Shown: positions 33,801-36,800 of the stretch, one piece after another
How the letters are laid out: every line of letters begins with the position of its first letter
How positions within the stretch are numbered: the first letter of the stretch is position 1
NCBI RefSeq assembly: GCF_054482525.1
Contig: NZ_CM137006.1
Reading direction: 5' to 3' (one strand)
Length of the DNA stretch: 64,000 nt
Position numbers: made by a program

Positions 33801-36800
33801 GTGCCGGAAGAGCGAAGCTATGCAGCGTGTACTGGCATTTTATCAAGGAAATGTTAGGTATTTTAGACGTTACTAGATTAAAGAGCATTAGTTCAGATGT
33901 GAATTGACATTTTCATGGCGCAGGGTAGAGCCAGCGTGGTTGTCCGCTTTGCGTCAAAACCAGATATTACCAGATTTAGACATATATTCCCGATAGACCT
34001 GCTCTGATGCTACACTCTGTGCTATTTTCATGACCCCAATAAAAATATTTATGACTATTGCTGATTTCAAACGGCCTAAATTGGAGCTCCCAAACGGGGC
34101 AAACAAACTACTACTGCACTCTTGCTGTGCTCCATGTTCCGGTGAAGTGATGGAGGCGCTTCAGGCCTCGGGAATCGACTACACCATCTTTTTCTACAAC
34201 CCGAACATTCATCCTCAGAAAGAGTATTTAATTCGTAAGGATGAAAATATTCGCTTTGCTGAACAACACGGCGTGCCGTTTATCGATGCTGATTACGACA
34301 CCGACAACTGGTTTGAACGTGCCAAAGGAATGGAATGGGAGCCTGAGAGGGGGATCCGTTGTACCATGTGTTTTGACATGCGTTTTGAGCGGACAGCGTT
34401 GTACGCTGCTGAAAATGGTTTCAGTGTGATCAGCAGTTCACTGGGCATTTCACGCTGGAAAAATATGCAGCAGGTTAACGAGTGTGGGCGGCGAGCTGTT
34501 GCGCATTATCCGGGTATGGTGTACTGGGATTATAACTGGCGCAAGCAGGGCGGCTCGTCCCGTATGATTGAAATCAGCAAGCGCGAAAAATTCTATCAGC
34601 AGGAATATTGTGGCTGTGTGTATTCTCTGCGCGATACCAATCTACACCGCAAATCTCAGGGACGCCCTCTTATCAAAATTGGCCAACTCCACTACGGAAA
34701 AGAAGAGAAGGAGTGATTTTATGGATCACCTTTCTGATTGATTTTATATTGGCGAGGTAACGGGAGTTAAGTAGAATGGCTGCGGGTGCTTGAGGCTATC
34801 TGTCTCAGGCATGAACACCAAAGGCAGATAGAGAAAAGCCCCAGTTAACATTACGCGTCCTGCAAGACGCTTAACATTAATCTGAGGCTCAATCTATGAA
34901 CGGCAAATCTAGGTTAGCCTCTTACGTGCCGAAAGGCAAGGAGAAGCAGGCTATGAAGCAGCAAAAGGCGATGTTAATCGCCCTGATCGTCATCTGTTTA
35001 ACCGTCATTGTGACGGCACTGGTAACGAGGAAAGACCTCTGCGAGGTACGAATCCGAACCGGCCAGACGGAGGTCGCTGTCTTCACAGCTTACGAACCTG
35101 AGGAGTAAGAGACCTGGCGGGGGAGAAATCCCTCGCCACCTCTGATGTGTCAGGCATCCTCAACGCACCCGCACTTAACCCGCTTCGGCGTTTTTTCCGT
35201 TGATTAACTCTAGTTATTAGAGAACCGAACTTTTATTGATGGGGCAGGGAGATGAAGAAACTTGTTTTAGTCGCAGGTGTAATGATTGCAACAGTAATGT
35301 TGGGAGGGTGTGCAGCAAAGATCGATCCAGCGTTGAAAGCAGAAGCAATGAAGCCACTAACATGTAATGATGAAAAGCAATGTGACTTTTATTGGAAACG
35401 AGCGCAATTCTGGTTGGCTAATAATTCCTCATGGAAAATTCAAACGGCGACAGACACGCTAATTTCCACTTATAATCCCTCTCCAAATAGTCCATTCCTC
35501 GCTTATCAAGTGAGTAAAATGCCAAATGAAGATGGATCCTCAAGAATTTTCATCAAGCCTTTTTGCGATAATATGTTTGGCTGTCAACCAAACCCCTATC
35601 AGGCAGTTGTTTCCTTTAAAAACTTCGTTAAAACAGGGCAGTAGTGTATAGCTTGGACGATAAATTATTAGTGAAAACGCCGTAAACCCTCACCCAATGT
35701 GGACTAAGTCTATCAAACATGACTGTGATGATTAGTCCGTAGTTGTTGTCTATGAAATCTGGATTGAGTCAGGGTTTAATCCAATAATTATTCTATCGTT
35801 CCTTTACAAGTCCGGTATATTACTTTCAGTTTGTTTTAGCATACCCGCTTCGGCGGGTTTTGTTTTTTCCTGGCATTCTGGTTTACAATTCGCACGCCAG
35901 CCTGAACAACTGGCACCTGCTGCGCCAGCAGAGACAACCGATGGCGCACGATACCAAATTACACAATTCTGATGATTCTGCCGTCTTTGCCAGCAGGCAC
36001 GGGCGGCGTTCCCGCACTTTCAAATCTGACTGGTTCCAGCATGACCCATGTACTGAAGAACAGGCCGAATGGCTAATTCATAACTATCGCAGACGCGGAT
36101 ACGAGATTAAGAAAGCCCTCAGCCTCGATTATCGTCACTGGATAATCTATGTCAGGCTCCCTTATTCCGAACGCCCACCGCGCCCATCCCGCACATACCA
36201 GCAACGGATCTGGAGGTAACGTGCGGATATTACTTCGACCTGTTCTGGTACCGGAACTCGGGCTGGTGGTCCTTAGGCCGGGCCGTGAATCCATGCAAGT
36301 ATTTCATAACCCTCGAGTGCTGGTGGAGCCTGAACCGAAAAGCATGCGCGGTCTGCCGTCCGGAGTCGTCCCTGCCGTTCGCCAGCCGCTGGCGGAGGAT
36401 AAATCATTACTGCCATTTTTCAGCGATGAGCGGGTGATTCGTGCTGCTGGCGGCGCTGGGGCGCTGTCTGACTGGCTGTTGCGTCATGTCAAATCCTGCC
36501 AGTGGCCTCATGGTGACTATCATCACAGTGAAATCGTCATACATCGTTACGGTACCAGCGCGATGGTGTTGTGCTGGCACTGCGACAACCAGTTGCGTGA
36601 CCAGACATCCGAATCACTCGGGCAACTTGCTCATCAAAACCTGTCAGCATGGATGATTGACGTCATACGCCATGCAATGAATGGCACGCAGGAGCGGGAA
36701 TTGTCGCTGGCTGAATTATCTTGGTGGGCGGTCTGCAATCAGGTGGCGGACGCGCTTCCGGAGGCAGTATTACGTCGTTCTCTGGGGGTACGTGCGGAAA

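What the first reader, a model, noticed from the sequence alone, without database searches (positions are those of the whole stretch)
34896..35108. Hok-family type I toxin in the nin region with an in-frame upstream extension
The 51-aa product (MKQQKAMLIALIVICLTVIVTALVTRKDLCEV...) is a clear Hok/Gef membrane toxin, closest by recollection to HokD/RelF. An in-frame ATG 19 codons upstream (34896) could give a longer form or act as a Mok-like coupling element. A Sok-like antisense RNA would be expected on the opposite strand around 34840-34960 but cannot be confirmed by eye. No relBE pair precedes it here, unlike the Qin prophage arrangement as I recall it.
Basis: partly seen in the sequence, partly recalled or inferred. 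Interest (0 to 1): 0.35.

Follow-up and report, generated by a model that had tools for sequence, protein, structure and literature searches.

The report
Complete prophage hokD/mok/sok toxin-antitoxin locus
This is an ordinary, complete copy of the well-known hok/mok/sok toxin-antisense RNA module, HokD/HokW type, carried by a lambda-like prophage, as found in most E. coli genomes.

Summary
The 51-aa ORF (34953-35108) matches Pfam Hok/Gef (E=1e-23) and is 100% identical to E. coli K-12 HokD. The in-frame ATG at 34896 starts the 70-codon mok frame, which has its own GAGG ribosome-binding site.

Every regulatory element of the R1 hok/sok model is present:
- a hok promoter at 34749-34777;
- a 5' tac element (34784-95) that pairs with a 3' fbi element (35158-70);
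- a ucb anti-SD box, a metastable 5' hairpin, and a target hairpin that forms only after 3' trimming;
- a minus-strand Sok gene, with -35 TTGCCT at 34939-34 and -10 TAACCT at 34916-11, and an RNA of about 75 nt (about 34904 to 34830).

The -10 and the whole Sok promoter segment are identical to sokW of Sakai prophage Sp5. In Sp5 that -10 was mutated and toxicity and antisense rescue were shown (PMC8621323).

The locus matches 4942 of 5426 complete E. coli genomes and 102 phage records. The K-12 relBE-hokD arrangement is a 5'-truncated derivative.

Minor points:
- mok is in frame in some relatives and out of frame in others.
- The terminator is clipped at a mosaic junction.
- The 11 nt after the mok ATG are hypervariable among relatives.

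Verdict: already known, low interest.

The parts
34749..34777 (+). hok mRNA promoter: TTGGCG, 17-nt spacer, TAGAAT. The inferred transcription start is about 34784.
   Evidence: The consensus scan found it with 9 of 12 matches. The Rfam model's first position aligns at 34784, 7 nt after the -10. TAGAAT is conserved in Sp5 and Rac442.
34784..35200 (+). Full-length hok mRNA, about 390-420 nt. The 3' end is uncertain because the terminator is clipped.
   Evidence: The Rfam RF01794 match covers 34784-34958. The full-length minimum-energy fold closes the 5' end onto the 3' end. The locus aligns with Sp5, Rac442 and K-12.
34784..34795 (+). tac (translational activator) element, GGGUGCUUGAGG.
   Evidence: It pairs with 35158-35170 in the full-length fold. 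It switches to 34836-34842 once the 3' end is removed. In the nascent transcript it forms a metastable hairpin with 34802-34812, dG -16.5 kcal/mol.
34836..34844 (+). ucb (upstream complementary box), the anti-SD for mok.
   Evidence: In the full-length fold, 34837-40 pairs with 34886-89, which overlaps the mok SD. In the trimmed RNA it pairs with tac. This matches the Rfam consensus structure and the R1 model (PMC9841398).
34884..34921 (+). Sok target hairpin of the processed mRNA. It consists of the mok SD GAGG (34884-87), the mok ATG (34896-98), a loop (34900-07) and the dcb AGCCUC (34916-21).
   Evidence: It forms only when the fbi element is removed. It is part of the Rfam consensus structure. 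All 12 sequence variants of this segment in viral contigs keep it, with dG from -10 to -13.5 kcal/mol.
34896..35108 (+). mok reading frame, 70 codons, in frame with hok, so its product is an N-terminally extended Hok.
   Evidence: Sp5 orf74 is annotated at the same length, and phage records name the protein 'MokW'.
34953..35108 (+). hok toxin gene, 51 aa, identical to HokD. Its SD GGAG lies at 34940-43.
   Evidence: Pfam HOK_GEF E=1.2e-23. It is 100% identical to K-12 HokD.
34911..34939 (-). Sok promoter: -35 TTGCCT (34939 to 34934), 17-nt spacer, -10 TAACCT (34916 to 34911).
   Evidence: The segment 34910-34952 is identical to Sp5. Primers YO-421/422 in PMC8621323 change exactly this -10 in the 'pro-less' construct, which loses antitoxin activity. 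The -10 positions are nearly invariant in 89 relatives. It falls below the simple scan threshold at 7 of 12 matches.
34830..34904 (-). Sok antisense RNA, about 75 nt. It has a 5' single-stranded tail complementary to the mok ATG and the target loop, a long hairpin (34890-82 with 34844-36), and a UUUUCUCU tail.
   Evidence: The fold gives -33.3 kcal/mol, z=-4.98. The hairpin is conserved with A-U to G-C exchanges in 8 loci. The sokW northern probe YO-592 corresponds to 34874-34903. Both ends are inferred.
35115..35138 (+). 3' UTR hairpin GGCGGGGGA-GAAA-UCCCUCGCC. It is the likely roadblock that fixes the 3' end of the processed mRNA.
   Evidence: It forms a 10-bp stem in the fold. The role is assigned by analogy with R1 (PMC1635323).
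35158..35170 (+). fbi (fold-back inhibitory) element, CCUCAACGCACCC.
   Evidence: It forms 12 pairs with tac. A U-A pair is exchanged for C-G between the hokD/W group and the R1-like plasmid group.
35181..35196 (+). Clipped terminator: CGC-UUCG-GCG followed by U6. The usual form is CCCGC-UUCG-GCGGG.
   Evidence: The scan finds no terminator-like site. Homology to most relatives ends at 35196.

Best explanation
This is a complete, canonical hok/mok/sok type I toxin-antitoxin cassette of the HokD/HokW group. It is carried as a moron in the nin region of a Qin-like lambdoid prophage.

Proposed mechanism, step by step:
1. A weak promoter (34749-77) makes a hok mRNA of about 400 nt. Its 5' tac element first forms a metastable hairpin, then pairs with the 3' fbi element.
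2. In this closed form the ucb box covers the mok ribosome-binding site, so the RNA is neither translated nor bound by Sok.
3. Slow 3' trimming back to the hairpin at 35115-38 removes the fbi element.
4. tac then pairs with ucb, and the mok SD/ATG region refolds into the target hairpin (34884-34921).
5. A minus-strand Sok RNA of about 75 nt (about 34904 to 34830) pairs through its 5' tail with that hairpin. This blocks mok translation, and the duplex is cleaved by RNase III.
6. When Sok is lost, ribosomes translate mok. mok runs through the hok start, in frame in this copy, so Hok and/or the 70-aa Mok-Hok form is made. The peptide inserts into the inner membrane and depolarises and kills the cell.

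What is shown here: the sequences, the homology, the predicted folds and the covariation. What is inferred from R1 and Sp5 work: the transcript ends, the processing, the toxicity and the Sok action.

Likely biological role, inferred from hokW-sokW of Sp5: Hok is released when the prophage is induced, which helps lysis and phage release. Prophage retention is another possible role. I further suggest, without having tested it, that induced early-rightward transcription runs through the cassette against the Sok promoter and helps to shut Sok off.
For: Toxin identity:
- Pfam HOK_GEF E=1.2e-23; PHROG 251 'MokW-like host killing'; 100% identity to HokD.

RNA elements:
- Rfam RF01794 matches 34784-34958 at 110 bits, with a consensus structure that contains the tac/ucb stem and the target hairpin.
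- The full-length fold pairs 34784-95 with 35158-70, and pairs ucb with the mok SD.
- Deleting the 3' end moves tac onto ucb and creates the hairpin 34884-99/34908-21. This is exactly the switch described for R1 (PMC9841398; PMC1635323).
- The metastable 5' hairpin is predicted at -16.5 kcal/mol.
- tac/fbi complementarity is kept in 8 loci, with one compensatory exchange.

Sok:
- The hairpin folds at z=-4.98 and is conserved with covariation.
- The promoter is identical to the sokW promoter that was mutated experimentally; HokW toxicity, sokW rescue and a sokW northern signal are published (PMC8621323).

Distribution and context:
- Matches in 4942 of 5426 E. coli genomes and in 102 phage records, annotated as hokD, MokW or host killer.
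- No terminator-like site lies between the upstream QueH gene and the cassette, and the cassette has the same orientation as cro, the replication genes and Q.
Against: - Nothing was measured for this copy: no transcript ends, no toxicity test, no rescue test.
- The terminator has lost the 3' arm of its stem, and the scan finds no terminator-like site. The 3' end, and therefore the rate of fbi removal, may differ from relatives, and the mRNA may run on into the lipoprotein gene at 35252.
- The Sok promoter matches the consensus at only 7 of 12 positions and was missed by the scan.
- Chromosomal hok loci of K-12 and other strains were reported to be unable to mediate post-segregational killing (summarised in bioRxiv 10.1101/2025.08.07.668861).
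- The transcriptional-interference idea rests only on gene orientation.
Confidence: 0.9

Rival explanations
1. The cassette is an inert relic. It is sequence-intact but functionally silent, like the chromosomal hok loci of laboratory strains, for example because the clipped terminator prevents a proper 3' end and normal processing.
For: The terminator stem is reduced from 5 to 3 G-C pairs at a mosaic junction, and no terminator-like site is found. Chromosomal hokA, hokB and hokC loci were reported to be inactive for post-segregational killing.
Against: Every other element is intact: both promoters, tac, ucb, dcb, fbi, mok, hok and the Sok hairpin. The toxin is identical to the most common allele, seen in 57 of about 90 viral contigs. 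The same clipped variant recurs in other contigs. The 93%-identical Sp5 locus, which also lacks the canonical CCCGC-UUCG-GCGGG hairpin, is functional.
Confidence: 0.12
2. The 70-aa in-frame product is itself the main toxin, an N-terminally extended Hok. On this view hok is not a separately initiated gene and there is no true translational coupling.
For: mok and hok share a frame here, in Sp5, in hokC and in an Atlantibacter plasmid. RefSeq names MokC a 'toxin'. Sp5 orf74 is annotated as the 70-aa form.
Against: Close relatives with the same Hok (Rac442, IncY plasmid) have a 1-nt insertion that puts mok out of frame. R1-like plasmids do too, so the extension is dispensable. hok keeps its own strong SD, GGAG, 9 nt before the ATG. 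The 51-aa HokW alone is toxic. The residues of the extension just after the start codon are hypervariable.
Confidence: 0.1
3. The main role in the lysogen is defence against other phages by abortive infection, or prophage retention, rather than help with lysis on induction.
For: R1 hok/sok reduces T4 plating (cited in PMC8621323). hok genes are enriched four-fold in prophages. The cassette occurs in many different nin-region contexts, like other morons: 10 of 92 viral loci have QueH upstream and 2 of 92 have the lipoprotein gene downstream.
Against: The only experiment on a prophage copy of this group showed a positive effect on phage release after induction. No enrichment of hok near defence systems was found.
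Confidence: 0.3

Closest known systems
hokW-sokW of Sakai prophage 5 / VT2-Sakai (Takada et al. 2021, PMC8621323)
   Same: It is also a lambdoid prophage cassette with the same architecture. Nucleotide identity is 93% over 88% of the locus. The leader, the Sok promoter, the hok SD and the in-frame 70-codon mok are shared. Toxicity, sokW rescue and a role in phage release were shown there.
   Different: The last seven residues of Hok differ at four positions (TAYEPEE here, VDYESEK in HokW). The 11 nt after the mok ATG, which form the Sok 5' tail and target loop, differ at 7 of 11 positions. The sequence downstream of fbi and the flanking genes also differ.
hokD (relF) of the E. coli K-12 Qin prophage
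   Same: The Hok protein is identical. The hok SD, coding region, fbi and 3' UTR are 98% identical. The prophage family and downstream genes (DUF968, Q) are also shared.
   Different: K-12 has homology only from about 34939 onward. relBE replaces the hok promoter, tac, ucb, mok and the Sok -10, and there is no Rfam match. The window carries the complete, presumably ancestral form.
hok/sok (parB) of plasmid R1 and R1-like IncF plasmids
   Same: All named elements are shared (tac, fbi, ucb, dcb, mok, the Sok 5' tail and hairpin), as is the predicted refolding switch.
   Different: Hok is only about 44% identical. mok is out of frame with hok in the R1-like loci examined. The Sok hairpin here carries about 20 extra nt at its apex. 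The setting is a prophage rather than a plasmid.

Membership tests
[quoted passage not shown] | A small Hok/Gef membrane toxin (PF01848) of about 50 aa | tested here: met
   HOK_GEF E=1.2e-23, profile positions 1-42 of 42 matched. The protein is 100% identical to HokD.
[quoted passage not shown] | An overlapping upstream mok reading frame with its own ribosome-binding site | tested here: met
   GAGG at 34884-87 is followed 8 nt later by the ATG at 34896. The frame is 70 codons and aligns with mok of Sp5, hokC and plasmid loci.
[quoted passage not shown] | A cis-encoded antisense Sok RNA across the mok start, with a 5' tail, a hairpin and a U tail | tested here: met
   The promoter TTGCCT-17-TAACCT is identical to the validated sokW promoter. 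The hairpin folds at z=-4.98 and is conserved with covariation. Transcription itself could not be tested.
[quoted passage not shown] | 5'-3' fold-back (tac/fbi) in the full-length mRNA | tested here: met
   Twelve pairs form between 34784-95 and 35158-70 in the minimum-energy fold. The pairing is kept in 8 loci with a compensatory exchange.
[quoted passage not shown] | A refolding switch after 3' trimming (tac/ucb stem and mok SD/dcb target hairpin), plus a metastable 5' hairpin | tested here: met
   Predicted folds of the 3'-shortened RNAs show the switch. The nascent-transcript hairpin is predicted. The Rfam covariance model scores 110 bits.
[quoted passage not shown] | Toxicity of Hok and neutralisation by Sok | not testable with these tools
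   This was shown for the 93%-identical Sp5 locus (PMC8621323), not for this copy.
K-12 relB-relE-hokD (relF) operon arrangement | relBE immediately upstream, with hokD lacking its own leader, mok and sok | tested here: not met
   The upstream gene is QueH. The full leader is present. K-12 homology begins only at about 34939.

The most novel reading that the evidence does not exclude
The 11 nt just after the mok start (34899-34909) form the target-hairpin loop and, on the other strand, the first bases of Sok and its start-site region. This block may be a specificity barcode. Among 89 otherwise similar prophage loci it is the most variable stretch of the transcript (pi 0.41, against 0.03-0.20 elsewhere). 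It occurs in at least 8 discrete alleles, all of which preserve the hairpin, while Hok itself is nearly invariant. This would let several hok/sok copies in one polylysogenic E. coli (median 2, up to 10 places per genome) act independently, each Sok protecting only against its own prophage's hok. Loop positions and the second to fifth mok codons may instead simply be unconstrained. I did not find this pattern described in the papers I read, but the search was limited.
Probability: 0.35. Interest if true: 0.35.

Novelty: already known. Interest (0 to 1): 0.1.

Why it matters
It matters little as a discovery. The module is annotated as hokD, MokW or host killer in thousands of genomes, and a close prophage copy has been characterised experimentally. 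The check is still useful in two ways. It shows that the complete hokD locus, with leader, mok and sok, is the common form and that the textbook K-12 relBE-hokD arrangement is a truncation. It also gives exact coordinates for every regulatory element of this copy. The hypervariable Sok-tail block could be worth a small cross-neutralisation experiment.

Tried and rejected
- The simple promoter scan found no minus-strand promoter between 34900 and 34990. I do not treat this as evidence of absence. The homologous, experimentally mutated sokW -10 (TAACCT) matches the consensus at only 3 of 6 positions, below the scan threshold.
- The Rfam family 'sok' matches the plus strand. The model starts at the tac sequence and ends at the hok AUG, so it reports the hok mRNA leader, not Sok in its own orientation. 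I therefore used it as evidence for the leader only.
- A second weak Rfam hit (ceN48 snoRNA, 23 bits against a gathering score of 70) is chance.
- An ungapped Hamming comparison of the flanks gave inflated distances because of indels. I replaced it with alignment-based diversity.
- I looked for a YUNR U-turn motif in the target loop. Several alleles have one and the window allele does not. I drew no conclusion from this.
- Literature searches for hok/sok cross-talk between paralogues found nothing specific.
- I did not run protein homology or structure searches, because sequence identity to HokD settles the protein's identity.

Full report
**The observation**

The window carries, on the plus strand, an ORF at 34896-35108 (70 aa) and a nested ORF from the ATG at 34953 (51 aa). 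The 51-aa product matches Pfam PF01848 Hok/Gef over the whole profile, E=1.2e-23. It also matches PHROG 251 'MokW-like host killing'. It is 51/51 identical to HokD of a K-12 derivative, and both carry RefSeq protein WP_000813254.1.

The setting is a lambdoid prophage:
- an integrase beside a tRNA-Ser gene;
- a CI-type repressor with an S24 peptidase domain;
- Cro;
- a YdaT-like protein;
- a replication initiator;
- DUF977;
- QueH;
- the hok locus;
- a lipoprotein ORF;
- DUF968;
- RusA;
- antiterminator Q;
- four tRNA genes;
- a holin;
- a lysozyme.

The locus therefore sits in the nin-equivalent region and points the same way as the early-rightward genes.

**hok mRNA anatomy**

Rfam RF01794 matches 34784-34958 on the plus strand at 110 bits, against a gathering score of 59. 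The model begins at GGGUGCUUGAGG and ends at the hok AUG. It therefore describes the hok mRNA leader in the sense orientation, not Sok. I used it only as evidence for the leader.

Folding 34784-35205 gives a minimum-energy structure with these features:
- The first 12 nt (tac) pair with 35158-35170 (fbi).
- 34837-40 (ucb) pairs with 34886-89, which overlaps the mok Shine-Dalgarno.
- The hok start region pairs with 35076-35091.

Removing the 3' end so that fbi is lost moves tac onto 34836-42. It also creates a new hairpin, 34884-99/34908-21, with the mok ATG in its stem and 34900-07 in its loop. The first 29-52 nt alone form a metastable tac hairpin of -16.5 to -17.1 kcal/mol.

These are the closed, open and metastable conformations described for R1 hok mRNA (PMC9841398; PMC1635323). 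A 10-bp hairpin at 35115-38 lies where R1 has the roadblock for 3' trimming.

Across eight loci, tac/fbi complementarity is retained. The loci are the window, Sp5 hokW, a Rac-type prophage, hokC, an IncY plasmid and three plasmids with R1-like Hok sequences. A U-A to C-G exchange separates the hokD/W group from the R1-like group.

**Sok**

On the minus strand the sequence reads TTGCCT (34939 to 34934), a 17-nt spacer, then TAACCT (34916 to 34911). The simple scan missed it because it matches only 7 of 12 consensus positions.

The segment 34910-34952 is identical to Sp5. The mutagenic primers of Takada et al. change exactly this -10 in their 'pro-less' construct. That construct becomes toxic and is rescued by sokW supplied in trans (PMC8621323). 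Their sokW northern probe corresponds to window 34874-34903.

A start 7 nt after the -10 would be at about 34904. The RNA then has three parts:
- a single-stranded 5' tail of about 14 nt containing the complement of the mok ATG;
- a long hairpin (34890-82 with 34844-36);
- a UUUUCUCU tail ending near 34830.

The fold is -33.3 kcal/mol, z=-4.98. The hairpin is conserved in eight loci with A-U to G-C exchanges. The hokD/W group has about 20 extra nucleotides at the apex. The transcript ends are inferred, not measured.

**mok**

The ATG at 34896 lies 8 nt after GAGG (34884-87) and aligns with the mok start of relatives.

- mok is in frame with hok here, in Sp5, in hokC and in an Atlantibacter plasmid, giving a 69-71-aa extended Hok.
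- A 1-nt insertion puts it out of frame in Rac442 and the IncY plasmid.
- The Citrobacter and Klebsiella plasmid loci, whose Hok proteins resemble R1 Hok, are also out of frame.

The in-frame state is thus one of two common, known configurations. The sequence of the extension is not conserved.

**Distribution and relation to K-12**

The 476-nt locus matches 4942 of 5426 complete E. coli genomes. In 3925 of them the match covers at least 80% of the query. Genomes with a match have a median of 2 and up to 10 places. The locus also matches 102 phage records, annotated as HokD, MokW, host killer, gef or mok/hok.

K-12-type genomes match only query positions 200-457, which is window 34939-35196. 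There, relB-relE abuts the hok ribosome-binding site. The promoter, tac, ucb, mok and the Sok -10 are absent, and there is no Rfam match.

**Function**

For the closest studied relative, hokW-sokW of Sp5, the published findings are as follows (PMC8621323):
- HokW is toxic and localises to the inner membrane.
- sokW neutralises it, partly through RNase III and Hfq.
- sokW RNA disappears after mitomycin C, and HokW then appears in a RecA-dependent way.
- Deleting the locus halves phage release.

I take this as the most likely role here. Prophage retention and abortive infection remain alternatives.

No terminator-like site separates QueH from the cassette, and the cassette faces the same way as the early operon. 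I therefore suggest that induced read-through transcription collides with the Sok promoter. This is an untested inference.

**Deviations in this copy**

1. The terminator reads CGC-UUCG-GCG-U6 instead of CCCGC-UUCG-GCGGG. Homology to most relatives ends at 35196, so this is a mosaic junction. The same variant occurs in a few viral contigs. The 3' end may therefore differ from relatives, or the transcript may run on into the lipoprotein gene.
2. Among 89 unique related loci fetched from IMG/VR, the 11 nt after the mok ATG are the diversity peak of the transcript (pi 0.41, against 0.03-0.20 elsewhere). They fall into at least 8 discrete alleles that all keep the target hairpin, while Hok is nearly invariant. 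The window allele AACGGCAAATC is one of the common ones.
3. Only 10 of 92 viral loci have QueH upstream and 2 of 92 have the lipoprotein gene downstream. The cassette therefore moves between nin-region contexts.

**Verdict**

The object is a standard, fully equipped hokD/hokW-type hok/mok/sok cassette. It is already known and of low interest. The allele pattern of the Sok tail is the only mildly new lead.

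Noticed in passing
window 34899-34909: The 11 nt after the mok ATG form the target-hairpin loop and, on the other strand, the Sok 5' end and start-site region. They are the most variable stretch of the transcribed locus among 89 related viral loci (pi 0.41 against 0.03-0.20). They fall into at least 8 discrete alleles that all preserve the hairpin. This may be a Sok/hok specificity determinant.
   Followed up: partly
window 35181-35200: The hok terminator has lost the 3' arm of its stem (CGC-UUCG-GCG-U6 against the usual CCCGC-UUCG-GCGGG). 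The break lies at a mosaic junction at 35196/35197. Read-through into the lipoprotein ORF at 35252-35644 is possible.
   Followed up: partly
window 35091-35094: The Tyr47 codon UAC of hok sits in a UACG context. This is the kind of site reported to be A-to-I edited by TadA (Tyr to Cys) in hokB, and said to occur in the hokC, hokD and hokE mRNAs (bioRxiv 10.1101/2025.08.07.668861). A local fold shows no obvious anticodon-like stem-loop.
   Followed up: partly
window 34030-34716: A prophage-borne epoxyqueuosine reductase QueH homologue (Pfam E=1e-65; PHROG 3217, function unknown) lies directly upstream of hok. Four phage tRNA genes lie after Q. Only 10 of 92 related viral loci share the QueH-hok adjacency.
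   Followed up: partly
window 35252-35644: A 130-aa ORF with a lipoprotein signal (LGGC) has no Pfam family and matches PHROG 16082 of unknown function. It lies directly downstream of hok and is rare in that position, seen in 2 of 92 viral loci.
   Followed up: partly
window 29672-29723 (-): A DicF antisense sRNA matches Rfam at 76.7 bits. It lies in the early-left region of the same prophage, consistent with a Qin-like element.
   Followed up: no
window 1701-1828 (-) and 3261-3349 (-): An EFASI sRNA (100.8 bits) and a C4 antisense RNA (62.2 bits) match near the left end of the window. This points to another mobile element unrelated to the hok locus.
   Followed up: no
window 25127-25216 (+), 25269-26294 (-), 38523-38832 (+): A tRNA-Ser(CGA) gene lies directly beside the prophage integrase and is the likely attachment site. 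A cluster of four tRNA genes follows Q: a CAU-anticodon tRNA (called Met by ARAGORN and Ile in RefSeq), Lys, Thr and Gly.
   Followed up: no
Rfam RF01794, window 34784-34958 (+): The Rfam family named 'sok antitoxin (CssrC)' matches the hok-sense strand, from the tac element to the hok AUG. The same holds in all seven related loci that had a match. Its hits mark the hok leader, not the Sok RNA orientation.
   Followed up: yes
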